Source: Pseudomonas duriflava (GTDB lineage Bacteria > Pseudomonadota > Gammaproteobacteria > Pseudomonadales > Pseudomonadaceae). From it: a stretch of 40,000 bases of DNA. A program made the position numbers and the translations under genes. Location: contig NZ_VLKY01000016.1 of assembly GCF_007830155.1 (NCBI RefSeq), positions 34,771 through 74,770 on the forward strand, in the 5' to 3' direction. Below are positions 12,465-32,458 of this stretch, piece after piece. The stretch's first letter is position 1, and the number at the start of each line of letters is the position of its first letter. The notes under the pieces were generated by a model, which saw nothing but the letters and a program-made list of their open reading frames with translations, ran no database searches and had not been told where the DNA came from.

Positions 12465-12466
12465 GT

Positions 12467-17179: not shown

Positions 17180-20100
17180 TGGAAATATCCCTGGAGCGTT
17201 TGTGTACTGCCCTCGATCGCCTGGAGGAGTTGGAGACGAGTTTGCTGGCCTGGGGGGACACCGGTGGCTTCTTCACAGAAAACGAGATACTTGCGACACT
17301 CGAAGAGGTGCTTCCCGGGGACGATCCCTATGAAGTTCTGCTCGGACTCTGCGATCACGCCATGGTGATCGAGGCTCCCCACCCCGAGGGATTGTCCAAG
17401 CGCTACAGGACGCGAATGGGCGAGGCTGCGCATCTGTACCGCCATCTTCGCCAGTGGTTCCTAAACAAACCGGTCGACCAGGCCCGTACGCTAGTTTCCG
17501 ATTTTCGTTTCGTTCGGCGGCCGCGTAGTTACCCCTGCCGTGATCAGAGTTTGCAGAAACTACTAGATGGCTTGGGCGAGGACGCTTCTGCGCGATTCCA
17601 GCTGCCAATCCGCGCTCTACTGGGATACCAGGAGAACCTGCTTCTGGCCGGCTTTCAGGTGCGTGCCACTACTCGAGTCCTGCAGGCGTCTAAGGATCGG
17701 TCCATCCATGCTGCCGGCAGCATAGTCTGTGCCGGCACTGGTAGCGGCAAGACCTTGGCTTTCTATTTACCAGCCTTGGCTGCCTTATGCAGTCAATTGG
17801 CTGAGGATGCTTCCTCGCGAGTACGCATTCTGGCGATCTACCCGCGGCGTGAACTGCTGAAAGATCAGTTCATGGAGACTTGGAGCCAATGCCGAAAATT
17901 GGACGAACTAGTCAAGTCGCAGTCAGGCCGAAAGATTTCCATTGGGGCATTTTTTGGCGACACGCTGGAGAACACCAATGTTGCCCATGAGGCCGCAAAA
18001 AAGTTCAACGGCAATTTGCCGTTCGACTTGTTGCGTTGCCCTACGAAGGATTGCTCCGGAAAAATGGAATGGCGTCTGGAGGGTTCTGTCACGCAACGCG
18101 AAGAACTGCACTGCAGTCGCTGTGATCATTATGTACCTCATGATGAGGTTCGATTGACTCGGCGGTCTCTGGCTGCTGCACCACCGGATATCCTCTTCAC
18201 GACGACTGAAATGCTGAATCAGCATCTTGGGAACTATGCATTCCACCACTTATTCGGGGTAGGTAACTGCGAGGGACCCACGCTAGTGCTGCTGGATGAG
18301 GTGCATACTTATGAAGGCAGTAGCGGAGCGCAGACGGCCTATCTGCTTCGGCGTTGGATGAAGCGAAGTGAATGCCGGCCACACTTCGTTGGACTTTCCG
18401 CTACTTTGAGCGACGCACCTGCTTTTTTTTCCGAGTTAATCGGGGCGAAAGAAGGTCATGTGGAGTTGATCGAGCCTCTTGCGGATGAGATGGTGGACGA
18501 GGGCGCCGAGTATCTCATGTTATTGCGCGGGGATCCGGTTTCCCAAACTGCATTGCTCTCCACCACCATTCAGGCCGCTATGTTGACTCGGCGTATCCTG
18601 GATAATCGTGACAAGAGATCGCGTGGAACATGGGGAAGTAAAACTTTCGTTTTTACCGATGATCTGGATGTCAACAATCGACTCTATCACCAGCTTGCAG
18701 ACGCTGAAGGTTGGAAAACCAGGGGCGCGCAGTTGGTGCCGGATCATGAACCGCTGGCAAGCTTGAGGGGAAGCGGTCGCTATCTGGATTTTCCAAGCCG
18801 CCTTAAACGCATTCAGTTAGGCCAAGACTGGCAAATAGGCATGGATATCGGGCATTCGCTCGACAATGATGATCGCGCTCGGGTAGGCCGGACCTCTAGT
18901 CAGGACTCTGGCGTCGACCCTAACTCCGAGATCGTGGTGGCTACTGCTTCGCTGGAGGTCGGCTTTAACGATCCATCGGTTGGGGCGGTTTTGCAGCATA
19001 AGGCGCCGCGAAGCGTTGCGTCCTATCTGCAGCGCAAGGGACGTGCTGGGCGCCCCCGCGGGATGCGCCCATGGACCCTCGTTGTGCTTTCTGAGTTCGG
19101 TCGAGATCGAGTTGCTTTCCAGCGTTACGAGGAGTTGCTTACCCCTGAAATCAAGCGACAGAGGTTGCCACTTCAGAATGGGCATATCCAGAAGATGCAG
19201 GGGGCAATGGCGACGCTGGATTGGCTAGCGATGCTGCTGAAGGAGGGGTCGGTTTGGAGAATCCTGAAGTATCCCAAAGGATCGTCTGCACAACTGACGA
19301 CCTTGCTCTCGGCCGTTGAGCAAGTACTGCAACCTGGTGGAATGCAGGACCGATATTTTGGTTATTTGAAGGACGCGTTGCGCATAGATGAGGCAGCCTT
19401 GCAGCAAGTTCTGTGGGCTTCACCGCGATCATTGATGTTGTCTTTTTTGCCGACGCTTCGGCGGCAATTGAAAACGCTGTGGTGCGAGTATGGAGAGAAG
19501 TGGAAAGAACTCCCCCGAGGCCGCTCTCCGATGCCGGCTTTCATTCCAGAGGCAATGTTCGCCGAATTAAATATTCCTAACCTATTCGTGTCTTTGCAGC
19601 GTGGGGAAGGTAGTGATGCAAAATGGGAAGGACTGCCATTTTATCAGGCTTTGCGCGAGTTCTCTCCCGGCAGGATTTCCAAGCGTTTCGCTATCAAGTA
19701 TGACCTGGCTGACTGGCTGATCCCGGAGGGATTTCAGCCCATTGCCGATACCCTACAACAGGTTGACTTTGAGATTGCGGAAGCATTCGGAGAGTACCTA
19801 CAGAACGAAGGGGCGGTGGCTGCGGGATCTGATGCAGAATTGTCTGTGGTGCGGCCACGGGAAATACATACCCGCGCTCTGCGCAAGGCGAGTGGGTTGA
19901 CGGAAAAGAGTAATTCCCGCCTGCGTTGGGATTCGGAATTCATCTTGGCCGAACATACAACTGTTCAGAAGCCACCGATGGGAAGTTGGGGGAAGCACCT
20001 GATTGATGTGGCGTTTTGCCTTCATCAACAAATGACGCCGCTTGAGGTGGTGCGCTATAGCAAAGGAGCTGACGCCACGCTGCGTTTTCGCAGCGGCCAA

Positions 20101-21612
20101 ATCGCGCGGGTGAATTTTGCATGGAAAAGCCAAGGTGAAGCGATAGCCGTAGGTGCGCGTCAGTGGGTGGATGGTATGCGTCTTCGTTTTCGAGTCGGCA
20201 ATGAAACGATTGCCGATCTCCTGGGGGCCCCTGCCATATCGGCCGCATTGCGTCCGTTGTTGTTCCGGCGGCGGGTTGAGCAACTAGATCGTTTCGGCGG
20301 TGACCCCTTTACAGCCAATTGGGTATGCGAGTGCTTCCTTGCCGCTTTGGCCGTCGAGTTGAAGGACGTAGACCCGGCCGTGCCATCGGTGATGCATGGG
20401 GCCTTGTGCCGTCTACTTTCCGACGAGGGCAAAGAACGCTTGCTCGCTATTCCGCAAAGCCTTTTCCAACTCGATGAGCAAGAAGAAAGTTCCAGAGAGC
20501 AGGAATTGCAGGCCGACCTGCGGGGACTCCTGGGATGCTCTGAAGTGCTAGCCCGACTGGCAGATTGTGCCGAGCCTCTGTGGCGGGATATTCATGCCTT
20601 GCCAGATATCGTGGAATGGACAAAAGAACTGCTGGCCAATACGTTGGCAGCAGCAACCCAGCAAACACTATGCACCTTGCTTGGGGACGTTAACGAACGC
20701 TCGGTGAATGCTGATGCGCTTTGGCAAGACGGTGACTTGGAAGTATGGCTCAGCGAGGTCGAAGCGGGTGGTTGTGGAATCATCAGTCGTTTGGCCGAAG
20801 ACTACTTCGATGATCCTTTACGATTTCTGAATGTATTGGCGTGCAGTTTGCGCCCTGGCGACTACGAGCAAATTGACTTCGATCTCTACGAATTGCTGGA
20901 GAAAGCTTCTGTTGATGAGGAGATCGAGAGGGTTCTAACGGATGTCCGTGCAGCCGCCGATCATAAGCAGCGTCGCAAGGCCGGTGCAGCCATGCATTCC
21001 AGTCTCTTGCGGGCGGGGTTTGCACTTAGCCACAGTTTCCTCAGTGTATTGCACTCTCGCATACTCAAGCCGAGCAGCAGTCGGCAAACCGATGCTGAAC
21101 TGCTTACATTGCTCAAGCAATGGCGAGAACTGGAGGTCAGGAGTGGCATTGAGTGGCCCCTTAATATTGTTTCCCACACGTTGGCGGCGCAGAAGATGAG
21201 GGCGAATGCGACTGTCTCTGATTTATTTCGTGCTCATTGTGTGAATCAGGGGTTATTGTGGCCGCGAGGTAATACCATTCGTCAATCGGAATTGAATCGT
21301 TACAATCCTTTTAATAATGGGAATGCGGCCACGGAACGAATGCTGGGCGCTGGTTTGTTCGCCGGGCGTAGACCTCGGATAGTGTATTCAAATTCCTATT
21401 TGAGTGAATTGCACAAACTCTTGCGAGAAGAGGGTGGCGTTGAATTGGTGATTCCCCGCGACCAGCAGGGGAGGGTGTCCAAAGTCATTACCGAAGTACA
21501 GTTGTATCCGGTTGACTATCTGGGTTTGCTACTTTACCCCAGAGTGGGCGAACTACAGAGAGAAGACGGTTCCCTGGTGCTGGTCATAGAGTTGGCGGAG
21601 GCTTTGCAGTGA
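17176..21612 (+). CDS. dpdJ: Very large DExH-box helicase with a zinc-ribbon insert, DpdJ-like. The likely start is the ATG at 17179.
   Basis: VCAGTGSGKTLAFYLPAL (I), LVLLDEVHTYEG (II), VGLSATL (III), VATASLEVGFNDP (V), YLQRKGRAGRP (VI, about aa 618). Cys4 insert CPTKDC...CSRC between motifs I and II. About 850 aa after motif VI carry no motif I recognise. Confidence 0.75.
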   Translation: MMEISLERLCTALDRLEELETSLLAWGDTGGFFTENEILATLEEVLPGDDPYEVLLGLCDHAMVIEAPHPEGLSKRYRTRMGEAAHLYRHLRQWFLNKPVDQARTLVSDFRFVRRPRSYPCRDQSLQKLLDGLGEDASARFQLPIRALLGYQENLLLAGFQVRATTRVLQASKDRSIHAAGSIVCAGTGSGKTLAFYLPALAALCSQLAEDASSRVRILAIYPRRELLKDQFMETWSQCRKLDELVKSQSGRKISIGAFFGDTLENTNVAHEAAKKFNGNLPFDLLRCPTKDCSGKMEWRLEGSVTQREELHCSRCDHYVPHDEVRLTRRSLAAAPPDILFTTTEMLNQHLGNYAFHHLFGVGNCEGPTLVLLDEVHTYEGSSGAQTAYLLRRWMKRSECRPHFVGLSATLSDAPAFFSELIGAKEGHVELIEPLADEMVDEGAEYLMLLRGDPVSQTALLSTTIQAAMLTRRILDNRDKRSRGTWGSKTFVFTDDLDVNNRLYHQLADAEGWKTRGAQLVPDHEPLASLRGSGRYLDFPSRLKRIQLGQDWQIGMDIGHSLDNDDRARVGRTSSQDSGVDPNSEIVVATASLEVGFNDPSVGAVLQHKAPRSVASYLQRKGRAGRPRGMRPWTLVVLSEFGRDRVAFQRYEELLTPEIKRQRLPLQNGHIQKMQGAMATLDWLAMLLKEGSVWRILKYPKGSSAQLTTLLSAVEQVLQPGGMQDRYFGYLKDALRIDEAALQQVLWASPRSLMLSFLPTLRRQLKTLWCEYGEKWKELPRGRSPMPAFIPEAMFAELNIPNLFVSLQRGEGSDAKWEGLPFYQALREFSPGRISKRFAIKYDLADWLIPEGFQPIADTLQQVDFEIAEAFGEYLQNEGAVAAGSDAELSVVRPREIHTRALRKASGLTEKSNSRLRWDSEFILAEHTTVQKPPMGSWGKHLIDVAFCLHQQMTPLEVVRYSKGADATLRFRSGQIARVNFAWKSQGEAIAVGARQWVDGMRLRFRVGNETIADLLGAPAISAALRPLLFRRRVEQLDRFGGDPFTANWVCECFLAALAVELKDVDPAVPSVMHGALCRLLSDEGKERLLAIPQSLFQLDEQEESSREQELQADLRGLLGCSEVLARLADCAEPLWRDIHALPDIVEWTKELLANTLAAATQQTLCTLLGDVNERSVNADALWQDGDLEVWLSEVEAGGCGIISRLAEDYFDDPLRFLNVLACSLRPGDYEQIDFDLYELLEKASVDEEIERVLTDVRAAADHKQRRKAGAAMHSSLLRAGFALSHSFLSVLHSRILKPSSSRQTDAELLTLLKQWRELEVRSGIEWPLNIVSHTLAAQKMRANATVSDLFRAHCVNQGLLWPRGNTIRQSELNRYNPFNNGNAATERMLGAGLFAGRRPRIVYSNSYLSELHKLLREEGGVELVIPRDQQGRVSKVITEVQLYPVDYLGLLLYPRVGELQREDGSLVLVIELAEALQ

Positions 21613-21621
21613 GGGCGCGCT

Positions 21622-22149
21622 ATGAATGAGCAGCGGCAGATTTTTCTGCATGGACCTCTGGGGCGTAGGCAGTTTCGTGAAGTACTAAGTACTATGCTGG
21701 CGTCTTTGTTGATCAATCCAGACGAGATCTGGCTTGTATCACCTTGGTTGAGCGATTTTCCTTTATTGGATAATCGCTCAGGGCAATGGAATTCATTGGA
21801 ACCCAAGTGGGGTAGTCGAACCGTTTCGTTCAGCGAGTTATTGGGTCGGGCGGTCACGGCGGGGTGTACCTTGCGAATCGCAACCCGCGATGTAGACTCC
21901 AGTCGATATTTTGTCCGTGGCCTTGAGAATCGTCTCGGCGACAATCCGGACTTTCACTACCTAATCAGTGACACCCTGCATTCGAAGGGCTTTTTGACCC
22001 GATCGGGGTTTCTTAAGGGTTCCTTGAACTACACCTTCAGTGGTACGCAACGAAACGATGAGCATGTGACTCTGACACAAGACGCACAGGTGATATCCGA
22101 TGCGTTTCTTGAATTCAAAAATCATTATCGTTTCGAGGCCGATATATGA
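21622..22149 (+). CDS. dpdK: Single-HKD phospholipase D-family nuclease (Nuc-like), DpdK-like.
   Basis: 175 aa with one HKD-type motif, LHSKGFLTRSGFLKGSLNYTFSG (H.K....(x)..GS.N). It has the size of dimeric Nuc-type nucleases. Its stop overlaps the next start (ATGA). Confidence 0.75.
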   Translation: MNEQRQIFLHGPLGRRQFREVLSTMLASLLINPDEIWLVSPWLSDFPLLDNRSGQWNSLEPKWGSRTVSFSELLGRAVTAGCTLRIATRDVDSSRYFVRGLENRLGDNPDFHYLISDTLHSKGFLTRSGFLKGSLNYTFSGTQRNDEHVTLTQDAQVISDAFLEFKNHYRFEADI

Positions 22150-24329
22150 GTATCCCACCAGATTGGCTTCGGAATTTTTTCGCTGAAGACAATCAAATCG
22201 ATCTTGATCGACTGCTTTCGCTGACTAACCCGTACGATCCAAAGTTTCAAGATCTACTCAAGCCACTCGTGTCTTCAGCTATCGAGGGAAAATGGCCGTT
22301 GCTGCTCCCGGTTAGTCGTGGCGGCGAACTTTACTTCTATGGTGCTGAACGCGACAGGCGATCTTTGGAGGAGTTGCGACAGATACTGCAAGCGGTGCTG
22401 GGAGCAGCGGATACGTATCCAGAGTTTCCATTGATTAAGGTAGCCCGGGGAAAAATCGAACAGATTCTTTTACAGCAGGCACCTGCAGGGCTTCTCAAAG
22501 TTGATTTGTTACGCCAGTCGCAGAGCGACTTCGCTTTACGTAAACGTGTGTTTCAAGCGTTGGCATCGGTGCTGGATCTCTACCAGCAACGGCCGCCAGC
22601 AACCGCTGTGGTGAAGCGGCCAGTTGGGCGGGTCCTGCGGGATTTCTTCGCCGCTTGTCAGTCCTGGGATGGTTCGAAAGCATCGCACTTTTTTGGCGAA
22701 CTCAAAACGACAGGCAATTTCAGTCAGCGAAACTTGATCTCTCTGGAGTTGCAGGCCTGGGAGGCTGAGCGTCGTTGGTCGGACATTATAGGACATCCCC
22801 GACTAGTGGATATGCTGGGCGCAAGAATGCCCGCCCAACTGGTTCGGGTTCTATTGCGCGCCGTAGGTAATTTAGGCGGTGAACGTTTGCTGGAGCCAGG
22901 GGCGTTTGGCGAGGTGTCCCTGGAGCATATACGTCTTCTATGTCAGCCGATTAGCCCTCTTTTTGCCAATCGGCCTCCCCTAGAGACCCGCGAATGCTTT
23001 GCATCCGACTGGAAACTCTGGGCGATAGGCGCCGGGGCATTAGGCTTCTCCGATGGCCTTGATGGTCTTCCTGTCTTCATCGATCCGGCCTGGATTTGCG
23101 GATTGCACGACTGGGCAAACCTGCCGGCCAAGACCCCGGTAGCGCCAACCATAGCACCAATCCCTTCGCTGCAAAAAGTCGGATCTCCCCAGACCTTCAA
23201 CGATCTGCGACTGGTGCTCGAAGGCTCGCTATCTGCCTCCATGGAAGAGTTACGCGAGATCTGGGTCGCAGTGCAGGACGCACCCGAAGAGTTAAAAAAT
23301 GAACTCTACGTTTATCCACGCCTGCAGTCGGTGTGGCAAGGCATATGCCAGTTCTTCGATGGTAGTAGAGAACTCGGTTGGAAGGGATGGCTAGAACGCC
23401 TGAAGGAGGATTCTACTGACCCAGATGCCCTGATTCACGAGTTGCAGGAGGAGAGCCAGAGCTGGTCAATCGAGTCCTTCTCGGAGGCTCAGTTGATTGA
23501 GTGTCTGCATGGCGATGCCAGTACTTCCCTATTGTTGCGAGACAGCTTGCCGCTGCTGCTTGACTGGCTGGATCGTCGTCAAATCCTCTGCTCCGGGCAC
23601 TTCTGGCTGGAATGGCTGGAGTTGCTGGCTCTCGATGATTTGGTTAATCCGTCGGACGTACAGTTGGCAGGGCAGATTGTGCAGCGCTTCTTGTCCCGTC
23701 CTAGCCAAATCGGTGACCGTGCGCGCCTAGGGGAGTCCCTGGAGTTGTTATGGGAGAAGGGCGGTTCGGTCAGTGCTTATTCGGAAATGCTCGAGATTGT
23801 CGAGTTGCTTTTGGACGAGACTCAACCGGGGCAGCAACAGTTGCAAAAGCTCTGGTTGGTACTTCAAGGATTCGCCATGAGTCGCTGGACCCGTCTCGAG
23901 TTAGTGCAGCGTTATCTCACCAAAAGTCTCGCCAGAGAGATATTTGGTGAGAGCAATGAAGCGAGTTATCCGCCACTAACTGCTGAAGGAGGCGATGCTG
24001 ATCTTGACGTCCAAACAAGAAGGCTATCGGGTAGGCTGCTTGCTATCTACAGCCTTACCGAAGGGGCCGCGCGGCGAGCTAAAATAGTACTGGAAGGCAT
24101 GTTTGAGGGGCTGCGAGTGGAACTCAATCATGATCACACTGCGACCCCGGCTCTGCAGAATTTAGCCAAAAAAGCTAATTACTTCTTGTTTGTTTCCTGT
24201 AGCGCGAAGCATCAAGCCTTCTATCCCGTGAGTCGGATAAGACAGGATTTGATCTATCCCTTAGGAAAAGGCGCATCGAGCATAATCGAAGCATTTTGCA
24301 AAAGCTGCGTAAATACTACCTCGGAATAA
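22146..24329 (+). CDS. Hypothetical 727-aa protein translationally coupled to dpdK. It may be the DpdD equivalent or an additional component.
   Basis: Long uninterrupted ORF with the same composition as the operon and an ATGA overlap with dpdK. No catalytic motif recognised. The C-terminal ~90 aa (LLAIYSLTEGAARRAKIVLEG...NYFLFVSCSAKHQAFYPV) look like a small Rossmann-like alpha/beta domain. Confidence 0.6.
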   Translation: MSIPPDWLRNFFAEDNQIDLDRLLSLTNPYDPKFQDLLKPLVSSAIEGKWPLLLPVSRGGELYFYGAERDRRSLEELRQILQAVLGAADTYPEFPLIKVARGKIEQILLQQAPAGLLKVDLLRQSQSDFALRKRVFQALASVLDLYQQRPPATAVVKRPVGRVLRDFFAACQSWDGSKASHFFGELKTTGNFSQRNLISLELQAWEAERRWSDIIGHPRLVDMLGARMPAQLVRVLLRAVGNLGGERLLEPGAFGEVSLEHIRLLCQPISPLFANRPPLETRECFASDWKLWAIGAGALGFSDGLDGLPVFIDPAWICGLHDWANLPAKTPVAPTIAPIPSLQKVGSPQTFNDLRLVLEGSLSASMEELREIWVAVQDAPEELKNELYVYPRLQSVWQGICQFFDGSRELGWKGWLERLKEDSTDPDALIHELQEESQSWSIESFSEAQLIECLHGDASTSLLLRDSLPLLLDWLDRRQILCSGHFWLEWLELLALDDLVNPSDVQLAGQIVQRFLSRPSQIGDRARLGESLELLWEKGGSVSAYSEMLEIVELLLDETQPGQQQLQKLWLVLQGFAMSRWTRLELVQRYLTKSLAREIFGESNEASYPPLTAEGGDADLDVQTRRLSGRLLAIYSLTEGAARRAKIVLEGMFEGLRVELNHDHTATPALQNLAKKANYFLFVSCSAKHQAFYPVSRIRQDLIYPLGKGASSIIEAFCKSCVNTTSE

Positions 24330-24449: not shown

Positions 24450-24857
24450 TCATCGCGTCCAGCGCAAAACGCAGCGATCGCCGCTGGCTCGGCGTTCGAT
24501 CATAACGGCGCATAGGCCTGGTACCGAATCTGCCATCTGTGCGCGAATAAAAGCACAGAGATTCTCGATAGTGGCAGATCCTAGACCTTGAACCTCATCA
24601 AGGAATCGGTGATCTAGCATCTCTTTTACTCTGGCAATTTCACTGCGCAGATAGCCAAGATCTATAAGCATCCCGGAGGTGGGATCCGGTTGACCAGCGA
24701 CGGTAACCTCTGCTTCGTAGGTATGTCCGTGGATACGTAGACTGCCCTCGGTCTCGATAGTACGATTCAAGGTGTGGGCTGCTTCGAAGAAAAAGCGCTG
24801 CGATAGTTCGTACACGCTCCTGCAGTTGTCCAAGGCATTATCTGTGGATGTAGACAT
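24450..24857 (-). CDS. queD: 6-carboxy-5,6,7,8-tetrahydropterin synthase QueD.
   Basis: 135 aa. FFFEAAHTL and SLRIHGHTYEAEVTV match the QueD/PTPS H..HGH zinc-binding signature. It sits next to queE and queC, and its start overlaps the queE stop by 1 nt. Confidence 0.85.
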   Translation of the reverse strand: MSTSTDNALDNCRSVYELSQRFFFEAAHTLNRTIETEGSLRIHGHTYEAEVTVAGQPDPTSGMLIDLGYLRSEIARVKEMLDHRFLDEVQGLGSATIENLCAFIRAQMADSVPGLCAVMIERRASGDRCVLRWTR

Positions 24858-25489
24858 CAGCGAATCTCCAATATCTTATGTGTCTGTACAGAGAGACGCC
24901 ATTTGGTGTTCTCCTGACAATAGGCAATGGCAGAGCGGGTATTCTGCCTCTGCATTGGTCCATCCATGGGTTGCAATAGATAGTAGTGAAAGTTGCTATC
25001 AAGCGCGGCCATGGGGAGTAGGCCAGGCTGGGGATAAACAAGTTTTAGTTCGTGGCCGCTGCGCTGCACCCACTCCGAGCCAGCCTTAGGGCTAACGCAG
25101 ATCCAATCGATACCTTGAGGTACTGGAATGGTCCCGTTAGTCTCCACAGCAATTTCAAAACCCTGATCATGCAAGGCCTCGATGAATGCTTCATCTACCT
25201 GCATTAAGGGCTCGCCTCCCGTCAATACAACATAGCGGTGCTCCTGGCCGCTTGGCCAGAGCGAGGAAATTTGTTCAACTAAGATCTCCGCAGTCTGATA
25301 CTTGCCACCTAAGGTTCCGTTCGTACCCACAAAGTCTGTGTCGCAAAACTGGCATACTGCCTTGGAGCGATCGGTTTCCCGACCACTCCACAGATTACAC
25401 CCTGCAAAACGACAAAAAACTGCAGGTCGGCCTGCTCGAAGCCCTTCCCCCTGCAGGGTGTAAAAGATCTCTTTAACGCTATAAGTCAT
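24857..25489 (-). CDS. queE: 7-carboxy-7-deazaguanine synthase QueE (radical SAM).
   Basis: 210 aa. [46 protein letters not shown] carries a CX14CX2C-type cluster motif typical of the short QueE class. C-terminal [12 protein letters not shown]. Confidence 0.9.
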
Positions 25490-26190
25490 GCCACGCTATC
25501 TCGCTGAAACGCCTCAAAGCCAGTTCGGCGTAGCTCGCAGGCAGGGCATTGATTGCAGCCATAACCCCAGTCATGACGATGCTGCCGATCCCCCAGATAA
25601 CAGGTATGGGTGTGCTCTTGAATAAGAGCAACAAAGTTTGGCCCGCCAAGGGCTTTGGCCAGATCCCAGGTTTGTTTCTTATCCAACCACATTAGCGGTG
25701 TCTCAATTACCAGTGGCATATCCATACCTAGGCTCAGAGATACCTGTAACGCTTTGAGTGTGTTGTCGCGACAGTCGGGATAGCCCGAGTAGTCTGTTTC
25801 ACACATCCCGCCTACAAGTACGCTCAGTCCTCTGCGATAGGCGAGGGTAGCGGCGAAGGTAAAAAAAAGAAGGTTACGACCCGGTACAAAGGTATTAGGT
25901 AGACCATTTTCTTCAACCTCAATCGCTTTTTCGGCAGTCATTGCCGTATCGCTGATCTGACTGAGTAGCTTTAAGTCTAATAAATGGTCTTCGCCTAATT
26001 TGCTCTTCCAGCCGGGAAATTCATCTCTTAGCTTCTCTAGAATATGCATACGACACTGCAATTCCACCTCATGACGCTGACCGTAGTCGAAACCCACTGT
26101 TTCGACATGCTCATATCTAGTTAAAGCCCAGGCTAGGCAAGTGGTAGAATCCTGGCCACCTGAGAACAGAACCAACGCTGACTTATGCAT
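25486..26190 (-). CDS. queC: 7-cyano-7-deazaguanine (preQ0) synthase QueC.
   Basis: [19 protein letters not shown]-loop motif. C-terminal zinc cysteines CYLGDR...[11 protein letters not shown]. 234 aa. Confidence 0.9.
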
Positions 26191-26204
26191 AATTTAGTTA
26201 ACTC

Positions 26205-27272
26205 TTAACTAGTGGGCTGGGTCTTTTTCAATTCCTGACTCAATTTTCGCGTCAGAAATTGGCTCAAGAGGGCGATATCACTAGGTGTGTTTTGAATACC
26301 GTTCCAGGGTCGCCGATCATTTTCTGAAAAAATCCACTCGCCACTAGTCCAGGCAGTGTAAGGCTTAAGCAATCGTAATCCATTAATAAAAGACTGTTTG
26401 TCGACAGATCCGCCTGTGCTGTAGATCAGTTCCATAACGAAGCCTAGCGCGATAAGCCCAGCGCCGTGCTTTAGACGGGAATTGCGAGGGGCTAAACCGT
26501 CCCATTCGTTTTTAAAAACAACTCTTACCGCGTGGAAGAAATTATTAATTACTTCAACTGATCTGGACTCAAAATCGTCAAACTTCATGAACGATCGAAT
26601 CGCACCATCATTTGCTGAGTTCATTACTAATTTCTGCATTGCTGTATCACTCAATGTACCCTGCGGATTTGTATGCTGGCGTACCTCGCAAAATAGTGAT
26701 GAAGAAGGAAGGAAATTGAGCGTATCAACAATGCGTGCAGCAAATTTACGACTGGTAAAGCGCTCCGGCAAGCCTTCTACGGTTGGCAGCAATTCATAAA
26801 TCAATGATTTAGGCAGAGGCCGAGTATTGTTGATCAGTATGAACTGCTGTCGAAGTTCATTGTAATCTTTACAAACAAGCGCAGAGACGAAGACTTGAAA
26901 ATCACCCTTATCCATGCTTGAAAGGGCGCTAAGTCGTTGTTGGCCATCAACTACAAAACCCGGTTTTGAGGATGTTGCATCAATGTCAATTGCAACTACG
27001 CCGTCCCCTTGATCTTTAAGCGTCACATCTCCCAAAAAGGCAAGAATGATCGCATTGGGTAAGAGTGCATCCTCACGGCTCAGATAATCGCGAATATCGT
27101 TGATATGGGACGCTACCTGATGACGCTGAAATCCTTTTAGTTGTCCTTCATTGTCACGTCCAACTCGTTCAATTTCTGAGAATTGGAGTATGTCTTGAGG
27201 ACGAGCGGCAAATGTAAAAACATCATGGCCAGAGGCTTGCTGCGCCCTAACACCTTTATAACGGAAAATCAT
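26205..27272 (-). CDS. dpdB: DGQHR/DndB-like ParB-superfamily protein, DpdB (paralog 1, immediately downstream of dpdA).
   Basis: GFQRHQVASHINDIRDYL, LPNAIILAF, FVVDGQQRLSAL and QFILINNTRPLPKSLIYELLP give the DGQHR-domain pattern. The start overlaps the dpdA stop (ATGA). Confidence 0.75.
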   Translation of the reverse strand: MIFRYKGVRAQQASGHDVFTFAARPQDILQFSEIERVGRDNEGQLKGFQRHQVASHINDIRDYLSREDALLPNAIILAFLGDVTLKDQGDGVVAIDIDATSSKPGFVVDGQQRLSALSSMDKGDFQVFVSALVCKDYNELRQQFILINNTRPLPKSLIYELLPTVEGLPERFTSRKFAARIVDTLNFLPSSSLFCEVRQHTNPQGTLSDTAMQKLVMNSANDGAIRSFMKFDDFESRSVEVINNFFHAVRVVFKNEWDGLAPRNSRLKHGAGLIALGFVMELIYSTGGSVDKQSFINGLRLLKPYTAWTSGEWIFSENDRRPWNGIQNTPSDIALLSQFLTRKLSQELKKTQPTS

Positions 27273-28564
27273 TCTTTGTGTTCCAGGGTCTTTTGCAAGT
27301 GTCGGTAATAGACGCCTAGGTTATGAAACCCACGACGCTTGTTACGATTACTTGCTCGAAAAATAATGGTTTCAACGCCAGCAGACTGACAAATCGTGCA
27401 TTGGCACTTTTGCCAAGGTTTGTCACGCAGTGTGGGAGAAATAAGCCGAATATTTTTAGCTATTTCCTTCTCCTTTTCTGCCTCACTGAGCGATGAGCCA
27501 CTTAGCGCTAAACGTAAGTAATCGATTAAGGCGGAGAGCGTTTCGTCATAATCTAACAGGCCCTTGTCATACTCACGAATAGCCTTGAGCGCTACTATCT
27601 CTTTTTTCTGCAACTCTTCGGCACTAAGTGTTCCTTTCTTAATACCTTGCATAAGGCGTGGATTCTCTATCGCTTGTGGAATCCTGATGGCTGTGTAGTA
27701 GTCAAGTTTTCGAGTCAGGTTATCGAGATAATAATTGGCTTTTGCATCCTTGAAGGCACGTATCAACGGTGAGGTTGAATCAAAGCTCGTAATGCCGTAG
27801 TTAGTAAATTCGTGGATTTGTTCAGCTTTAGCAAATCCCAAAAGATGAATATTGGTTTCTGGTTTTAAAATATTACGTAGCGCCTTAAGCACCGCGTGGA
27901 TTTGCTCGACCTTAAGAGGAACAAGCCCGCCAATGGCAAGATACCGATATCCCATCGCTTCCAATGATTTAGCTGCTGTGGCCATGCTTTCAGGTGACCA
28001 ACCTTGAACAGCGCCGAGCGGTTCGAAAGGCCAGTCTGCCTCTTTGACTAGGCGCAAAAACTCTCTTGCATTTTCTAACGTGATTTCATAACGGTAAATT
28101 ACATCTCTTGGCTGAGAGTCTGCCGGAGGATTCGTCACATCACAGTCAAAAATAATATGGTCAGGCGAGCAGCCATGTGTAAACCCTGCATCAGAATAAA
28201 ATTCCATCACCTCTAGCGGTGTATAGGCAGGCGTTGGATGAGTTACATAAGCAAAAGCGCCACAGTCGCCCAAAATCATGATATTGGAAAACTTGGGGCC
28301 TTCTAGACGCAAAAATTTTCGCACACCATCTCTAAGTAAACGCTGCTGCTCAGAGGTCGAATAGCGGACTTTCGAGTTAGCGACCCCTAACGCAGGACGC
28401 ACCGCGCTCATTGACACCAGTAATCCATCATAGGGCACAGGGGTCATCATTTCGTGCGCATACTGATCATCCCAGTAGCGCTTGCGCCCTGGCGCATTAC
28501 GATCATTGATAAAATCGTAATAAGGATCTACATAATCTTGGGTATCGGCGTATAGAAATTTCAT
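27269..28564 (-). CDS. dpdA: tRNA-guanine transglycosylase-like DNA 7-deazaguanine transglycosylase DpdA.
   Basis: 431 aa. TGT-type C-terminal zinc motif KCQCTICQSAG...FHNLGVYYRHL (CxCxxC...H) and the internal strand YLAIGGLVPL. It is embedded between DGQHR genes and beside queCDE, which is the diagnostic Dpd context. Confidence 0.8.
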   Translation of the reverse strand: MKFLYADTQDYVDPYYDFINDRNAPGRKRYWDDQYAHEMMTPVPYDGLLVSMSAVRPALGVANSKVRYSTSEQQRLLRDGVRKFLRLEGPKFSNIMILGDCGAFAYVTHPTPAYTPLEVMEFYSDAGFTHGCSPDHIIFDCDVTNPPADSQPRDVIYRYEITLENAREFLRLVKEADWPFEPLGAVQGWSPESMATAAKSLEAMGYRYLAIGGLVPLKVEQIHAVLKALRNILKPETNIHLLGFAKAEQIHEFTNYGITSFDSTSPLIRAFKDAKANYYLDNLTRKLDYYTAIRIPQAIENPRLMQGIKKGTLSAEELQKKEIVALKAIREYDKGLLDYDETLSALIDYLRLALSGSSLSEAEKEKEIAKNIRLISPTLRDKPWQKCQCTICQSAGVETIIFRASNRNKRRGFHNLGVYYRHLQKTLEHKE

Positions 28565-29688
28565 TATCGTATGCTGGTTATATAAAGACGTAACAATGTG
28601 TCTTGCAAAGTTTTTATATCTTTCTTTGTATGTTCAAGTTCGTTCCAGGCAATATCTATGCCTGGCCATTTGCCAGAGGTCCACGCACAATGAGGTACTA
28701 TTCGAGAGATTTCTTGTACAAGACTTTCGTAATTATTATTGTAGCCATTGAGCTTTGCATAAATACGGTCCATTAACACTCCCATAGCAATAATGCCTGC
28801 TGAGTGCATAAGGCGGCTATTTTTAGGGTCAAGGCCCCATGCGCTTGGAAAGCACTGTTTTACAGCTTTCCAAAAATGTACTAGTAATTGATACATGGCC
28901 TCTACATTTGCCGCTTCGTCATTACTGGATTTGTAGGGATAGAGCGCTCCTAACGGATTACTCATACTATGTTTGATCATGGTGATGACCGAAGTATCTG
29001 TAACGACAGATGAAGTATCTTTTTGATCTGAAAGACGCTTAATGAGCTTATAAAACGGAGATTCAGGATCCCGATTAAGTAAACCGCATAGTTCGGCAGG
29101 TGCTTTTTTAGCGCTAAGCTCTTTGGGTAATAAAATACTACTTGTTTCCGGCAGTAACTCATTAATCAGCCGGGTTGGAAGCGGCTTAGCCTTATTAACT
29201 AAAATAAATTGCTCTCGCTGAGTTGTTAGATTGTCGGAAACAAAGCCAACAACAGGAACAGGCAAGTCAGCGTTTTCAGCTTTAGCTAGCGCTAACGAGC
29301 GTTGTTGACCATCAACAATCCAAGCAGAGCGCTCCCCCATTTTATGAATCGGTATACGTAATGTTCCAGCTTGAGCTATGCCTTCATCGCCCGTTGGTTT
29401 TGTTCCTCGAGAGGCTGTGAATTTAATATCTGAAGACAGGGCTAGAATAATCGCGTTTGGAAATAATACATTTCCTTGGTTTAAGTACTGAATAATGCCT
29501 TTTACGTGGCTTCGGATCTCAGGCCTTTGAAAGCCTTTCAAAGCATTACTCTCATCACGAGCCAGGCGGGTTATGTCAGCAATTCTGACAAGATCTGAAC
29601 CTCTAATAAACAAAGCATAGACGTCTAAATCATCACCTTGAGTGGTTCGAAGTGCTCGAACGACAATCTCTTGATAAATCTCCGTCAT
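28564..29688 (-). CDS. DGQHR/DndB-like ParB-superfamily protein, divergent DpdB-like paralog 2 (immediately upstream of dpdA).
   Basis: GFQRPEIRSHVKGIIQYL, FPNAIILAL, WIVDGQQRSLAL and QFILVNKAKPLPTRLINELLPE. It is colinear with paralogs 1 and 3 but much more divergent. Its stop overlaps the dpdA start by 1 nt. Confidence 0.75.
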   Translation of the reverse strand: MTEIYQEIVVRALRTTQGDDLDVYALFIRGSDLVRIADITRLARDESNALKGFQRPEIRSHVKGIIQYLNQGNVLFPNAIILALSSDIKFTASRGTKPTGDEGIAQAGTLRIPIHKMGERSAWIVDGQQRSLALAKAENADLPVPVVGFVSDNLTTQREQFILVNKAKPLPTRLINELLPETSSILLPKELSAKKAPAELCGLLNRDPESPFYKLIKRLSDQKDTSSVVTDTSVITMIKHSMSNPLGALYPYKSSNDEAANVEAMYQLLVHFWKAVKQCFPSAWGLDPKNSRLMHSAGIIAMGVLMDRIYAKLNGYNNNYESLVQEISRIVPHCAWTSGKWPGIDIAWNELEHTKKDIKTLQDTLLRLYITSIR

Positions 29689-30620
29689 GCTTCACCTCTA
29701 GATGCGGCGCCATCCTTTAGTTGCGACCAGAGAGTTCGAAACCGCGACTGCTCGCAGGCGACTTTCGCTTCATCTCGGAGATAGCGTAGTAACCGGGTTG
29801 AACTCCCTCCATACGAAGCCCAAACCTCTTTAAGCAAGGTCAAGACCTCCTGGTCTGTAACTCGACGCCTCGCTACCTTACTAACTGTTTGCAACCGATC
29901 CATGGCCTCATTTACGGTATGACGGGCCACTGTAATGGGTTGAAAAGCGAGGTTAAGGTCCTCAATAAAGTGGAGCATTGCCCGTTGCGGGTAATCGTTT
30001 CTAGTTCCTGCTATACGTGAGCTTTCAAGTCGCTCGTCGTAGGGCATAGCAACGTGCTTAAAATGTTCTGGGAGATGTATAATCCCGGGGCGTGAAGTAA
30101 ATATTCGGATTTTTGCGGCATCTACAGCATTTATTTGCGCAAGATCATTTGCGATAAGATCGATATAATTGGCTGAGAGAGCAATTAATATGAGCCCTAC
30201 ATCAGGGCTGCCTGCCAGTTCTTTAATGGGGTAGGGCTGATTGTATTGAGTATTAATCGCGTCCCACCAATCTCGAGGGCTAGCTCCAAACTCATTGAGT
30301 TTAAGGCGAATCGAACCTGCGCCCTCGGCAACCGTTAGGTCATAAAGAGGGCAAAGGCCATCACTAGGAATAAGGCCCATTCCTGTAGAGGCAAACATCA
30401 GCTCAGCTTTCAGTGCTCGGGCTACCTTAAACGCTTCCTGAACACTTCGCCCTACATACAGGGACCCCGCCTGAACAAGAGGTTCATGCGCTTTAACTTT
30501 TTGTGCCCACAAAGCTGCCATCATCGTAAGCGATTCGCAATCTGAAGGCTCGAAAGTTACTCGCAATGAGCCACTCATACGCTTTCGGTTCGTGCAATTA
30601 GTGATGATGACAGTGCGCAT
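29685..30620 (-). CDS. Hypothetical protein; DpdC candidate (preQ0-DNA to ADG-DNA conversion) by synteny only.
   Basis: 311-aa ORF, first gene of the minus-strand operon, overlapping paralog 2 by 4 nt. N-terminal pattern IITNCTNRKR...LYVGRSVQEA...FASTGMGLIPSD...YDLT. I cannot confirm the family from memory. Confidence 0.45.
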   Translation of the reverse strand: MRTVIITNCTNRKRMSGSLRVTFEPSDCESLTMMAALWAQKVKAHEPLVQAGSLYVGRSVQEAFKVARALKAELMFASTGMGLIPSDGLCPLYDLTVAEGAGSIRLKLNEFGASPRDWWDAINTQYNQPYPIKELAGSPDVGLILIALSANYIDLIANDLAQINAVDAAKIRIFTSRPGIIHLPEHFKHVAMPYDERLESSRIAGTRNDYPQRAMLHFIEDLNLAFQPITVARHTVNEAMDRLQTVSKVARRRVTDQEVLTLLKEVWASYGGSSTRLLRYLRDEAKVACEQSRFRTLWSQLKDGAASRGEA

Positions 30621-30798
30621 AAAACTGTTGGGTCCCGTTTGCGAGGGGTTGCAGTTATTTGAATCTGTGCAATTCTAGCATCAGTAACTGCATAAGATCA
30701 TTCCAGGTAGTCTGATTTTTGTACGGGCCTGCCGTTGCTCATGTGGTTAACGTCGAGTAAGCCAGTAAAGACATATCCAGATTAGGTAGGAGAGACAA

Positions 30799-31875
30799 GT
30801 GTTACGGTTTGCAGCCATACAGGCCCTACAAAGTGACACCCATCAGGTGCTCTCATTTGCAGCTACCGTTGAGCAAGTACTTGCTATCGCAGCTATTGAT
30901 CGAGTCAAGCGAGATGACAAAGGCTTTTTACTAGGATTTCAGCGACCACTCGTATCCAAGCATATTAAAGAGATTCGCGATTATTTAGGCCGCCCAGATG
31001 CGGTTATGCCTAACGCCGTGGTGCTAGCGTTCACAAGTGGCATTAATGTCAAACGTAACGGCGGCCCCTATGTGGAACTTGAAGTGGATGCCTCCTCTGG
31101 ACCCGTAGGGTTTGTTGTTGATGGTCAGCAACGACTGTCAGCATTGGCTGGCTTGCCTACAAGTTCATTCCAAATACTTGTCTCAGCGCTGATATGCAAT
31201 AGCGCCGAGGAGTTACGGAGACAATTCATACTCGTAAACAATACAAGTCCGTTACCTAAGTCGTTGATTTATGAACTGCTACCCTCGGTTGAGGGATTGC
31301 CTCGGCGGATGAACGCTCGATCAAGGGCAGCCAGAATTGTCGAAATGTTAAATTATGACGCTCGCTCTTCTCTAAGAGGGCAGATAAAGCAACATACAAA
31401 TCCGACCGGCGTAATAGGCGACACCGGATTGCAGAAGTTAGTGATGAATTCCTTATCAGACGGGTATTGCCGATCTGTAATAGACCATGAGAATGGGGAA
31501 GAGACGTGCTTTTTGGCAATAAGCGAATTTTTCTTAGCTGTTCAGCAGGTTTTTAGTTCAGCCTGGTATGGCCATACGCCAAAGTCCTCACGCCTAGTGC
31601 ATAGCGCTGGAATTATTTCTATGGGTTTTGTGATGGAGCAGTTATGTCATGCTGGAAAGCCTTTAGCTCCAGTTTTTAAGTTAGGGCTAAGCGCGTTAAA
31701 GGGAAAAACAGCCTGGACAGTCGGCGATGGTGAATGGCCTTTTAGAGCCGGTAAAAGACCTTGGAATGGCATACAAAATCTTCACGGAGATATTCATCTG
31801 CTGACTGACTACTTAACTAAGCTGGTCCGGTCCCCTATGGGTAGTCGTCATAACAAAACAACATCAATCGAATAA
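30799..31875 (+). CDS. DGQHR/DndB-like ParB-superfamily protein, DpdB-like paralog 3 (divergently transcribed).
   Basis: GTG start with SD AGGAGA upstream. GFQRPLVSKHIKEIRDYL, MPNAVVLAF, FVVDGQQRLSAL and QFILVNNTSPLPKSLIYELLPSVEGLP. It aligns by eye end to end with paralog 1, with roughly half the positions identical. Confidence 0.75.
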   Translation: MLRFAAIQALQSDTHQVLSFAATVEQVLAIAAIDRVKRDDKGFLLGFQRPLVSKHIKEIRDYLGRPDAVMPNAVVLAFTSGINVKRNGGPYVELEVDASSGPVGFVVDGQQRLSALAGLPTSSFQILVSALICNSAEELRRQFILVNNTSPLPKSLIYELLPSVEGLPRRMNARSRAARIVEMLNYDARSSLRGQIKQHTNPTGVIGDTGLQKLVMNSLSDGYCRSVIDHENGEETCFLAISEFFLAVQQVFSSAWYGHTPKSSRLVHSAGIISMGFVMEQLCHAGKPLAPVFKLGLSALKGKTAWTVGDGEWPFRAGKRPWNGIQNLHGDIHLLTDYLTKLVRSPMGSRHNKTTSIE

Positions 31876-31887
31876 CTAGGAAATGAT

Positions 31888-32325
31888 ATGAATATCGACG
31901 TCCAAAAAACGGTCGCCTTGGTAAGCATAGAAACAGTCAAAGAGTTTTCATCTGAGCTTATAGTATTAGCCAATGTTTTTCAGGACGAACTACAGCGAAT
32001 CAGTAGGATCGACTGTGAGGCTGCGGAGCGTAGTTACGGGGTATTGATGGAGATTTACGGTCTTCGTACGCGAGCCAATATATTGTTCAACGATGCAGTT
32101 CATCATACGGTTGAAGGCTTAGACTTTACTCAGCAAGAGTTAATGGGCCTGGTCGAGCAAGTGAAATATTTAATGCCAAGCATTACAACAATAAAAACTG
32201 CAAACACGATTATTTTATCTGTTGCTACGTTTTCTGTTGCTCTAGGAGAGGGTCGGGGTAAAGTGGTTAAATTTCTTATGGATAATTTAAAAAAGCAAAT
32301 ATCTGTATTAAGCAGCTCTAGCTAA
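31888..32325 (+). CDS. Hypothetical protein.
   Basis: 145-aa ORF starting 12 nt after paralog 3, with SD AGGAAA upstream and AT-rich composition like its neighbours. No motif recognised. Confidence 0.5.
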   Translation: MNIDVQKTVALVSIETVKEFSSELIVLANVFQDELQRISRIDCEAAERSYGVLMEIYGLRTRANILFNDAVHHTVEGLDFTQQELMGLVEQVKYLMPSITTIKTANTIILSVATFSVALGEGRGKVVKFLMDNLKKQISVLSSSS

Positions 32326-32458
32326 TAGAATTATTATAAATTGTAATAAAGGGATCTATAAAATTAGGGACAGAGGTGACTGGGCAGCCAAACACCAATC
32401 TCATCTAACCTTTTCAAGTTAGTGGCGATACTTCTTTGAATAAGTAAGGGATATTCTG

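What the first reader, a model, noticed from the sequence alone, without database searches (positions are those of the whole stretch)
26205..31875. Three DGQHR (DpdB-like) paralogs: two bracket dpdA with overlapping codons and a third is divergently transcribed
As I recall it, the described minimal modification machinery uses a single DpdB ATPase with DpdA. Here three colinear proteins carry GFQR...PNA(I/V)(I/V)LA...(V/I)VDGQQR...QFIL(I/V)N...LP..LI.ELLP. Paralogs 1 (26205-27272) and 3 (30799-31875) are clearly close, with about half the positions identical by eye. Paralog 2 (28564-29688) is much more divergent. Paralogs 1 and 2 are both translationally coupled to dpdA. This suggests a heteromeric DpdA-DpdB-DpdB' complex or two sequence specificities. 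Paralog 3 has its own promoter, facing the operon promoter. It could instead be a DndB-style regulator of the modification operon, or a spare specificity subunit acquired separately.
Basis: partly seen in the sequence, partly recalled or inferred. Interest (0 to 1): 0.7.

Follow-up and report, generated by a model that had tools for sequence, protein, structure and literature searches.

The report
Three DpdB paralogs in Dpd island
A Pseudomonas DNA-modification (Dpd) defence island really does encode three copies of the DpdB ATPase, but two copies flanking dpdA is the normal layout for a large group of such islands, and only the third, separately acquired copy is specific to the Pseudomonas lineage.

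Summary
Three full-length DpdB-family genes lie at the stated coordinates. All score above the curated DpdB cut-off and all keep the GFQR and DGQQR motifs. Paralogs 1 and 3 are 50% identical; paralog 2 is 31-33% identical to each.

The window is a complete Dpd island from Pseudomonas duriflava: dpdE-F-G-H-I-J-K-D, then dpdC-dpdB(up)-dpdA-dpdB(down)-queC-queE-queD.

The arrangement is not unusual. All 80 species-level loci with DpdA at least 50% identical have the same dpdC-dpdB-dpdA-dpdB' order, mostly with 4-nt overlaps. A published survey counts about 19% of dpd islands with two dpdB and about 6% with three.

The third copy, followed by a small helical protein (Y145), was found only in Pseudomonas-clade islands. 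It belongs to the downstream type and groups with alphaproteobacterial downstream copies, not with the resident one. It is under equally strong purifying selection (dN/dS 0.04).

Salmonella DpdB is a homodimeric ATPase. I therefore infer, without direct evidence, that the up and down paralogs form a heterodimer. The third copy would then be an extra downstream-type subunit of the modification module.

There is no evidence for a DndB-style regulator. This is a modest lead: a variant of a known system.

The parts
29685..30620 (-). dpdC, a divergent DUF6884-type gene and first gene of the modification operon. By homology it converts dPreQ0-DNA to dADG-DNA.
   Evidence: PADLOC PDLC02815 DpdC, 299 bits. 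A local HMM of its homologs hits the Salmonella-type protein in the DpdC position at E 1e-27 to 1e-32. The Comamonas homolog hits PF21818 at 33 bits. The window protein itself has no Pfam or NCBIfam hit.
   Evidence: NF041060 at 461 bits. The upstream clade is monophyletic in 100% of bootstraps. Its stop codon overlaps the dpdA start by 1 nt. dN/dS 0.038.
27269..28564 (-). dpdA, the DNA-guanine transglycosylase
   Evidence: NF041059 at 553 bits. 44% identical to S. Montevideo DpdA, PDB 7UI4.
   Evidence: NF041060 at 381 bits. Its start overlaps the dpdA stop by 4 nt. Orthologs at 65-80% identity occur in many Pseudomonadota and in a Scytonema metagenome-assembled genome. dN/dS 0.038.
24450..26190 (-). 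queC (25486-26190), queE (24857-25489) and queD (24450-24857): preQ0 synthesis genes at the 3' end of the operon
   Evidence: NCBIfam TIGR00364, TIGR04508 and TIGR03367.
30621..30798 (.). Divergent intergenic region between dpdC and the third dpdB. It contains a 9-nt perfect inverted repeat, TGCAGTTAT (30650-30658) and ATAACTGCA (30685-30693).
   Evidence: The spacer length and the blocks GCAnTTAT and AnTAACTG are conserved in 10 Pseudomonas loci. There is no sigma-70 consensus match. Function not shown.
30799..31875 (+). Third dpdB paralog. It is of the downstream type and was found only in the Pseudomonas clade. It has a GTG start with an AGGAG Shine-Dalgarno sequence.
   Evidence: NF041060 at 342 bits. 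50% identical to paralog 1. It keeps 73 of the 76 positions conserved in both other clades. dN/dS 0.043. It co-diverges with DpdA, r = 0.99. AF2 model pLDDT 89.
31888..32325 (+). Y145, a small all-helical protein of unknown function that starts 12 nt after the third dpdB
   Evidence: Adjacent to the third dpdB in all 12 Pseudomonas loci. Also present in 6 dpd loci that lack a third dpdB. AF2 pLDDT 88, no fold match. Only 33 representative clusters in 1.84 billion proteins.
6880..24329 (+). [quoted passage not shown]
   Evidence: NCBIfam NF041062 to NF041068 and NF041061. All are above their cut-offs except DpdI, at 105 bits against a cut-off of 150.

Best explanation
The region is the modification half of a complete Dpd (7-deazaguanine DNA modification and restriction) island. 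It has the 'two-DpdB' architecture dpdC-dpdB(up)-dpdA-dpdB(down)-queCED.

Shown:
- The two bracketing paralogs are old, distinct clades.
- They always occur together with dpdA.
- They are translationally coupled to dpdA.
- They evolve at the same rate as DpdA under strong purifying selection.
- Both keep the ParB-type NTPase motifs (GxQR and DGQQR).

Inferred: the single Salmonella DpdB is a homodimeric ATPase that DpdA needs in order to insert preQ0 into DNA. The up and down paralogs therefore most likely form an obligate heterodimeric ATPase that does this job for DpdA, after which DpdC converts dPreQ0 to dADG.

Shown for the third, divergently transcribed copy:
- It is a downstream-type DpdB.
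- It came from a different dpd lineage and has since been inherited with the Pseudomonas-clade island.
- It is intact and under selection.
- It shares a transcription unit with a small helical dpd-associated protein, and in some species with queD.

Inferred, with low certainty: it is an additional subunit of the modification machinery. It could be an alternative partner for the upstream-type subunit, or a separate homodimer. It is probably neither a transcription factor nor a remnant.
For: - Family assignment.
- Universal architecture: the DpdA-anchored scan of GTDB species genomes found 376 relatives. Each of the best 80 loci carries dpdC, an upstream dpdB, dpdA and a downstream dpdB.
- Translational coupling: 4-nt overlaps at the upstream-copy/dpdA junction in 70 of 80 loci and at the dpdA/downstream-copy junction in 54 of 79.
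- Clade structure: the upstream clade is monophyletic in 100% of bootstraps, and the downstream copies plus the third copy in 100%.
- Co-divergence: pairwise distances correlate at r = 0.96 (DpdA vs downstream copy), 0.90 (DpdA vs upstream copy) and 0.93 (between the two copies). Mean distances are equal at 0.38, 0.38 and 0.37.
- Motifs are conserved in every clade.
- dN/dS is 0.037-0.043 for DpdA and all three DpdB paralogs.
- Salmonella DpdB shares 10 clade-defining residues with the upstream clade only and 8 with the downstream clade only. Both copies look like diverged descendants of one ancestral DpdB.
- Salmonella DpdB is a homodimer with a DGQQR ATPase domain and is required with ATP for DpdA activity (PMC10164549).
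- Third copy: found only in Pseudomonas-clade loci. It is sister to alphaproteobacterial downstream copies in 82% of bootstraps. Its closest outside relatives, at 55-60% identity, are downstream copies in dpdC-dpdB-dpdA-dpdB' operons.
- The order B3-Y145-queD occurs in 5 of 12 Pseudomonas loci.
Against: - There is no physical evidence for any complex. The heterodimer is inferred only from co-occurrence and from the Salmonella homodimer.
- In Salmonella, DpdA and DpdB did not form a stable complex on size-exclusion chromatography. A 'DpdA-DpdB-DpdB' complex' is therefore not implied.
- Both paralogs keep all NTPase motifs, which fits two separate homodimers equally well.
- The root of the DpdB tree rests on very distant DGQHR proteins. 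Salmonella DpdB joins the downstream clade in only 77% of bootstraps, and by HMM score it resembles the upstream copy.
- The survey covers only the 80 best of 376 DpdA relatives, with 10-kb flanks.
- The role of the third copy is a guess. Y145 also occurs without it, so the two are not an obligate pair.
Confidence: 0.5

Rival explanations
1. Each bracketing paralog forms its own homodimer and does a different job. For example, one drives DpdA's base exchange, and the other recruits DpdC or couples modification status to the DpdD-K restriction machinery.
For: Both clades keep the complete NTPase motif set, so neither looks like a degenerate partner. Salmonella DpdB is a homodimer. The upstream copy is inserted between dpdC and dpdA, a position that is empty in Salmonella-type loci.
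Against: The Salmonella system performs all the same steps with one DpdB. Strict co-occurrence and equal rates of change are also what a heteromer would show. Nothing here separates the two models.
Confidence: 0.25
2. The third, divergent copy is a DndB-style DNA-binding regulator. It would bind the shared 178-nt control region and tune expression of the modification operon.
For: It is divergently arranged. The spacer has conserved length, conserved blocks and an inverted repeat. It has non-ATG start codons (GTG in the window; apparently TTG in the nine other loci aligned), which suggests low expression. DndB, a relative in the same Pfam family, is an ATP-modulated repressor (cited in PMC10164549 and PMC5699537).
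Against: It scores as a DpdB equivalog, not as DndB: the dnd-associated DGQHR model TIGR04172 gives 31 bits against a cut-off of 450. It keeps 73 of 76 family-wide conserved positions, including DGQQR. Its closest relatives are operon-internal downstream copies. No dnd genes are in the window. The 78 two-copy islands outside the Pseudomonas clade (69 species loci plus L004/L005, L137/L138 and L140) have no such gene. The inverted repeat is perfect only in this window.
Confidence: 0.15
3. The third copy is a functionless leftover from recombination between two dpd islands, or a redundant spare.
For: It lies at the edge of the island, next to an integrase in P. aeruginosa. It has a foreign phylogenetic origin.
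Against: dN/dS is 0.043, the same as DpdA. It is intact in all 12 Pseudomonas loci and co-diverges with the island at r = 0.99. It is co-oriented with queD in 5 loci.
Confidence: 0.05

Closest known systems
Salmonella enterica serovar Montevideo Dpd system (DpdA, DpdB, DpdC for modification; DpdD-K for restriction)
   Same: All eleven Dpd families are present. DpdA is 44% identical to the 7UI4 protein. DpdB has the DGQQR ParB-like ATPase architecture. DpdC is homologous. preQ0 genes are linked.
   Different: Salmonella-type loci have dpdC-dpdA-dpdB with one DpdB. Here an extra upstream-type dpdB sits between dpdC and dpdA, and a third copy is divergent. DpdC here is too diverged to hit Pfam DUF6884. 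queC, queE and queD are part of the operon.
Two-DpdB dpd islands of Comamonas, Cupriavidus, Variovorax, Paraburkholderia, Rhizobiaceae and Sphingomonadales
   Same: The core is identical, dpdC-dpdB(up)-dpdA-dpdB(down)-que, in 80 of 80 loci. It includes C. testosteroni ATCC 11996 (L034). DNA of C. testosteroni is reported to carry dPreQ0 and dADG (as cited in PMC12235509; the strain was not verified here).
   Different: These islands lack the third divergent dpdB. Only six of them have the Y145 gene, placed elsewhere.
DndB (regulator of the dnd DNA phosphorothioation operon)
   Same: Same Pfam family, PF14072, and the same DGQHR/DGQQR ParB-like fold class.
   Different: No dnd genes are nearby. 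The dnd-associated DGQHR model scores far below its cut-off (31-52 bits against 450). All three proteins are DpdB equivalogs.
ParB/Noc/PadC CTPase clamps and GmrSD/SspE DUF262 NTPases
   Same: The GxxR and DGQQR nucleotide-binding motifs. The top Foldseek hits of the paralog-3 model are the pNOB8 ParB N-domain, with PadC and BrxU lower in the list. The same structures are named as DpdB's neighbours in PMC10164549.
   Different: The Foldseek matches are not significant (E 0.06 or worse). DpdB has its own helical C-terminal domain and no nuclease motif.

Membership tests
DpdB (NCBIfam NF041060 equivalog) | Full-length HMM score above the curated cut-off of 300 bits | tested here: met
   381, 461 and 342 bits for paralogs 1, 2 and 3. 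PADLOC DpdB gives 413, 460 and 368 bits.
DpdB (NCBIfam NF041060 equivalog) | DGQQR NTPase motif and GxQR motif in a ParB-like N-terminal domain | tested here: met
   Present in all three proteins and conserved at 90% or more in each clade.
DpdB (NCBIfam NF041060 equivalog) | Encoded next to dpdA within a dpd island | tested here: met
   dpdA, dpdC and dpdD-K are all in the window.
DpdB (NCBIfam NF041060 equivalog) | ATPase activity required for DpdA-catalysed preQ0 insertion; homodimer in solution | not testable with these tools
   Known only for S. Montevideo DpdB (PMC10164549).
DpdC (DUF6884, PF21818) | Homology to the gene in the DpdC position of Salmonella-type loci | tested here: met
   PADLOC DpdC at 299 bits. 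Profile hit at E 1e-27 to 1e-32. The window protein itself gives no Pfam hit, but its Comamonas homolog does.
DndB (dnd operon regulator) | Membership of a dndBCDE cluster and a match to dnd-specific DGQHR models | tested here: not met
   TIGR04172 gives 31-52 bits against a cut-off of 450. None of the ORFs submitted to the family searches (24 of the window's larger ORFs) is a Dnd protein; short and nested ORFs were not scanned.
DndB (dnd operon regulator) | Sequence-specific binding to its own promoter region | not testable with these tools
   Only an inverted repeat and conserved blocks were seen in 30621-30798.
ParB/Srx-fold NTPase superfamily | Structural similarity of the N-terminal domain to ParB-N | tested here: inconclusive

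The most novel reading that the evidence does not exclude
DpdB in about a quarter of dpd islands is not a homodimer. It is an obligate asymmetric heterodimer of an upstream-type and a downstream-type subunit. In Pseudomonas a horizontally acquired second downstream-type subunit (paralog 3, perhaps helped by Y145) can swap into this clamp and redirect or regulate DpdA. That would give the island two modification specificities, or a switchable modification state.
Probability: 0.15. Interest if true: 0.65.

Novelty: new variant of a known kind. Interest (0 to 1): 0.4.

Why it matters
All biochemistry on bacterial 7-deazaguanine DNA modification comes from the single-DpdB Salmonella system, and what the DpdB ATPase actually does there is still open.

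A large, widespread group of islands splits DpdB into two co-inherited paralogs. The group includes islands in P. aeruginosa and in C. testosteroni, whose DNA is reported to be modified. If the two form a heterodimer, its two halves can be mutated separately. That would make it possible to test how ATP binding and hydrolysis are coupled to DpdA.

The third Pseudomonas copy and the small Y145 protein are uncharacterised accessories. They could explain lineage differences in modification level or site choice. The finding also means that annotation and survey pipelines that call every copy 'DpdB' are merging at least three distinct clades.

Tried and rejected
- Megablast of the 7.9-kb module against E. 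coli genomes and plasmids found nothing.
- No DpdB structure is in the PDB by sequence search.
- Thiaville et al. 2016 (PNAS) is not held in the library. The C. testosteroni modification data are therefore cited second-hand.
- A text search for named DpdB paralogs ('DpdB1', 'DpdB2', 'two DpdB') found nothing relevant.
- The first bootstrap run was invalid because saturated distances gave NaN. It was repeated with capped distances.
- The promoter and terminator scan found no site in the divergent spacer, and fewer sites overall than in shuffled sequence.
- No Rfam family, including preQ1 riboswitches, and no tRNA is present in the window.
- Y145: no Pfam, NCBIfam or PADLOC hit, and no fold match.
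- A word-indexed homolog search for Y145 returned only 4 proteins. The exhaustive profile search found 33 clusters.
- I considered predicting an up/down heterodimer from a linker fusion.
- Reading the higher NF041060 score of paralog 2 as proof that it is 'the' canonical DpdB was rejected. Salmonella DpdB is equidistant from both clades. By position and by tree it leans toward the downstream copy.
Full report
**What is there**

The window is from Pseudomonas duriflava: paralogs 1 and 3 match NCBI proteins of that species at 100%. It carries a complete Dpd island.

[quoted passage not shown] Each was identified by its NCBIfam equivalog model.

Converging on them, on the - strand, is one tightly packed operon:
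- a 311-aa gene (29685-30620)
- DGQHR paralog 2 (28564-29688)
- dpdA (27269-28564)
- DGQHR paralog 1 (26205-27272)
- queC, queE and queD (26190 down to 24450)

Divergent from this operon, across 178 nt, are paralog 3 (30799-31875, GTG start) and a 145-aa ORF (31888-32325).

**Checking the observation**

All three paralogs exceed the curated cut-off of the DpdB equivalog model (381, 461 and 342 bits against 300). They also match PADLOC DpdB.

BLASTP gives 50% identity between paralogs 1 and 3, 33% between 1 and 2, and 31% between 2 and 3. The signature is DGQQR, as in Salmonella DpdB.

dpdA overlaps paralog 1 by 4 nt and paralog 2 by 1 nt. The exception is the assumed promoters, for which a consensus scan found nothing in the spacer.

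**The 311-aa gene is dpdC**

The window protein has no Pfam or NCBIfam hit, even at E below 10. Three other lines identify it:
- It matches PADLOC DpdC at 299 bits.
- A profile built from its homologs in related loci hits the gene in the DpdC position of Salmonella-type loci at E 1e-27 to 1e-32.
- Its Comamonas homolog passes the Pfam DUF6884 threshold.

DUF6884 is the DpdC family according to PMC12235509. The operon is therefore dpdC-dpdB-dpdA-dpdB'-queCED.

**How ordinary is it?**

I built a DpdA alignment that included the S. Montevideo sequence recovered from PDB 7UI4. I used it to scan one genome per GTDB species. The scan found 376 DpdA relatives, and the 80 best loci (50-85% identity) were kept. 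They come from Gamma-, Beta- and Alphaproteobacteria plus a few metagenome-assembled genomes.

Six-frame ORFs searched with the window's proteins show the same dpdC, upstream dpdB, dpdA, downstream dpdB order in all 80 loci. One locus seemed at first to lack the downstream copy, but only because of N runs.

The 4-nt overlaps are conserved:
- upstream copy to dpdA: 70 of 80 loci
- dpdA to downstream copy: 54 of 79
- dpdC to upstream copy: 51 of 78

By contrast, 40 Salmonella-type loci from metagenomes (DpdA mostly 90-98% identical to 7UI4, two at 70% and one at 85%) have dpdC-dpdA-dpdB, with a single DpdB downstream of dpdA.

A published survey of 2335 de-duplicated dpd islands noted in passing that dpdB has by far the most extra copies, at 801 (PMC12235509/PMC11888242). 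Tabulating the rows of its architecture table that hold at least two windows (2273 of 2335) gives about 73.5% with one dpdB, about 19% with two and one dpdA, and about 6% with three.

But the arrangement is far from unique, and the copy numbers are already in the literature. No interpretation has been published. I found no paper that names or analyses the paralogs.

**Relationships of the paralogs**

I built a neighbour-joining tree of 111 non-redundant DpdB-family sequences, with 200 bootstraps on a subsample of 52. It shows:
- The upstream copies form one clade (100%).
- The downstream copies plus paralog 3 form another (100%).
- Salmonella DpdB joins the downstream clade in 77% of replicates and the upstream clade in 22%. 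The root rests on very distant DGQHR proteins, so this placement is weak.

Salmonella DpdB scores about equally against paralogs 1 and 2 (about 205 and 209 bits). It shares 10 clade-defining residues only with the upstream clade and 8 only with the downstream clade. The simplest reading is an ancient duplication of one ancestral DpdB, followed by divergence of both copies. Neither copy can be called 'the' canonical DpdB.

All clades keep G[FY]QR, PNA, VDGQQR, QFxLxN, PLP, ELLP, SRLxHxxG, AWTxGxW and WNxxQ.

Across 79 loci, DpdA and the two copies have equal mean pairwise distances (0.38, 0.38 and 0.37). Their distance matrices correlate at r = 0.90-0.96.

**The third copy**

It occurs only in the Pseudomonas-clade loci:
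- this window
- P. viridiflava (three assemblies)
- nine species-level loci (L006-L014)
- P. aeruginosa CP115204

None of the 78 other two-copy loci has it within 10 kb (71 of the 80 surveyed loci plus L004/L005, L137/L138 and L140).

It is a downstream-type protein. It shares 23 clade-specific residues with the downstream clade against 3 with the upstream clade, and it keeps 73 of 76 family-wide conserved positions.

It is not a recent duplicate of the resident downstream copy:
- It groups with alphaproteobacterial downstream copies in 82% of bootstraps and with beta/gamma copies in 10-17%.
- Its closest non-Pseudomonas relatives, at 55-60% identity against 50% to paralog 1, are operon-internal downstream copies in two unclassified NCBI assemblies and a Rhodospirillales-type metagenome contig.

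Within Pseudomonas it co-diverges with DpdA (r = 0.99). Its dN/dS is 0.043, against 0.037-0.038 for DpdA and the other two copies. It was therefore acquired once and has been kept under selection.

An AF2 model is confident (pLDDT 89). Its best, non-significant Foldseek hits are the pNOB8 ParB N-domain. That structure is among the neighbours reported for Salmonella DpdB.

**The 145-aa neighbour (Y145)**

Y145 follows paralog 3 in all 12 Pseudomonas loci. In P. aeruginosa the gene was not called in the annotation.

It is a confident all-helical bundle (pLDDT 88) with no fold match and no family hit. The family is tiny, with 33 clusters among 1.84 billion representatives.

It also occurs in six dpd islands that have no third dpdB: Variovorax, two Massilia, Dechloromonas, Acinetobacter and Ramlibacter. 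There it sits at the 3' end of the modification operon or divergent from dpdC. It is therefore an accessory of the modification module in general, not an obligate partner of paralog 3.

In five Pseudomonas loci queD sits directly after Y145 and is missing from the main operon. This ties the paralog-3 unit to preQ0 supply, and so to modification.

**Mechanism**

Established for Salmonella (PMC10164549):
- DpdA exchanges guanine for preQ0 in DNA only with DpdB and ATP.
- DpdB is the ATPase and is stimulated by DpdA plus DNA.
- DpdB is a homodimer, by SAXS and MALS, with a ParB-like N-domain carrying DGQQR. It was proposed to close around DNA.
- No stable DpdA-DpdB complex was seen.
- DpdC then hydrolyses dPreQ0 to dADG.

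By homology the same chemistry applies here.

Inference: the strictly co-inherited, equally constrained upstream and downstream paralogs replace the homodimer with a heterodimer. This is the usual outcome when a self-associating protein duplicates. I put it at about 0.5. Two separate homodimers with split roles is the main rival, at about 0.25.

For paralog 3, the data favour a working member of the modification module. It could be an alternative downstream-type partner or its own dimer. The data count against a DndB-like repressor (about 0.15) and against a relic (about 0.05).

The spacer has a perfect 9-nt inverted repeat in this window and conserved sequence blocks across Pseudomonas. Nothing shows what binds there.

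**Verdict**

The feature is real and fully confirmed. Its core, two DpdB paralogs bracketing dpdA, is the standard layout of a large clade of dpd islands, and the copy counts are already published. The three-copy form is a lineage-specific elaboration, standard in all 12 distinct Pseudomonas-clade islands examined.

New here:
- the split into upstream, downstream and third-copy clades
- the foreign origin of the third copy
- the evidence that all three copies are under selection
- the recurrent Y145 accessory gene

This is a new variant of a known kind and a reasonable experimental lead, not a surprise.

Noticed in passing
window 31888-32325 (+); also L024:14143-14562, L033:13589-14065, L050:13607-14065, L052:1065-1619, L057:13150-13527: A small (about 140 aa) all-helical protein family recurs in dpd modification modules, with or without a third dpdB. 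It has no hit in Pfam, NCBIfam or PADLOC and no fold match. Only 33 representative clusters were found among 1.84 billion proteins.
   Followed up: yes
L001:4543-4944, L007:5836-6225, L009:5836-6234, L010:1501-1902, L011:5831-6196: In five Pseudomonas islands queD has moved out of the main operon. It sits directly downstream of Y145 in the transcription unit of the third dpdB. Three other islands (L006, L012, L013) show no queD near the module at all.
   Followed up: partly
window 3214-4710 and 4700-6730 (+): Two adjacent, overlapping DUF262/GmrSD-family genes (GmrSD_N+DUF7834, and GmrSD_N+GmrSD_C) lie just upstream of dpdE. Their best PADLOC hits are HEC-06, Orf5 and SspE. They look like a type IV restriction-like pair and belong to the same ParB/DGQQR superfamily as DpdB. 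A 235-aa ORF with no hits (2490-3197) precedes them.
   Followed up: partly
window 26000-33000 versus 7000-24000: The modification module has 43-47% G+C, while the dpdE-D restriction module has 48-58%. The two halves of the island may have different histories.
   Followed up: no
window 16421-17179 (+): The gene in the DpdI position scores only 105 bits against the NF041066 cut-off of 150, so it is a divergent DpdI.
   Followed up: no
L012:8198-9505, L014:4029-5210, L015:13251-14825, L020:14136-15308, L032:11241-12815, L037:15730-16641, L042:15792-16991, L062:15915-17426, L065:8128-9243, L078:17755-19119: About 10 of the 80 related dpd loci carry yet another distant DGQHR-domain protein within 10 kb of dpdA. 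These are 300-520 aa and score 52-82 bits on the DpdB model, far below its cut-off. They are of unknown affiliation.
   Followed up: partly
window 33009-34559, 34701-35942, 36888-37892, 403-1059, 1077-1949: Flanking genes: a NUDIX plus ADP-ribosylglycohydrolase fusion, a Fic/DUF4172 protein, an FGE-sulfatase-domain protein, an HD_4-domain protein and a WYL-domain protein. No integrase and no tRNA is in the window, whereas the P. aeruginosa island has an integrase right after Y145 (L139:11596-13008).
   Followed up: no
L139:11078-11527 (P. aeruginosa CP115204): The Y145 homolog is an intact ORF, but it is absent from the gene calls returned for that record.
   Followed up: partly
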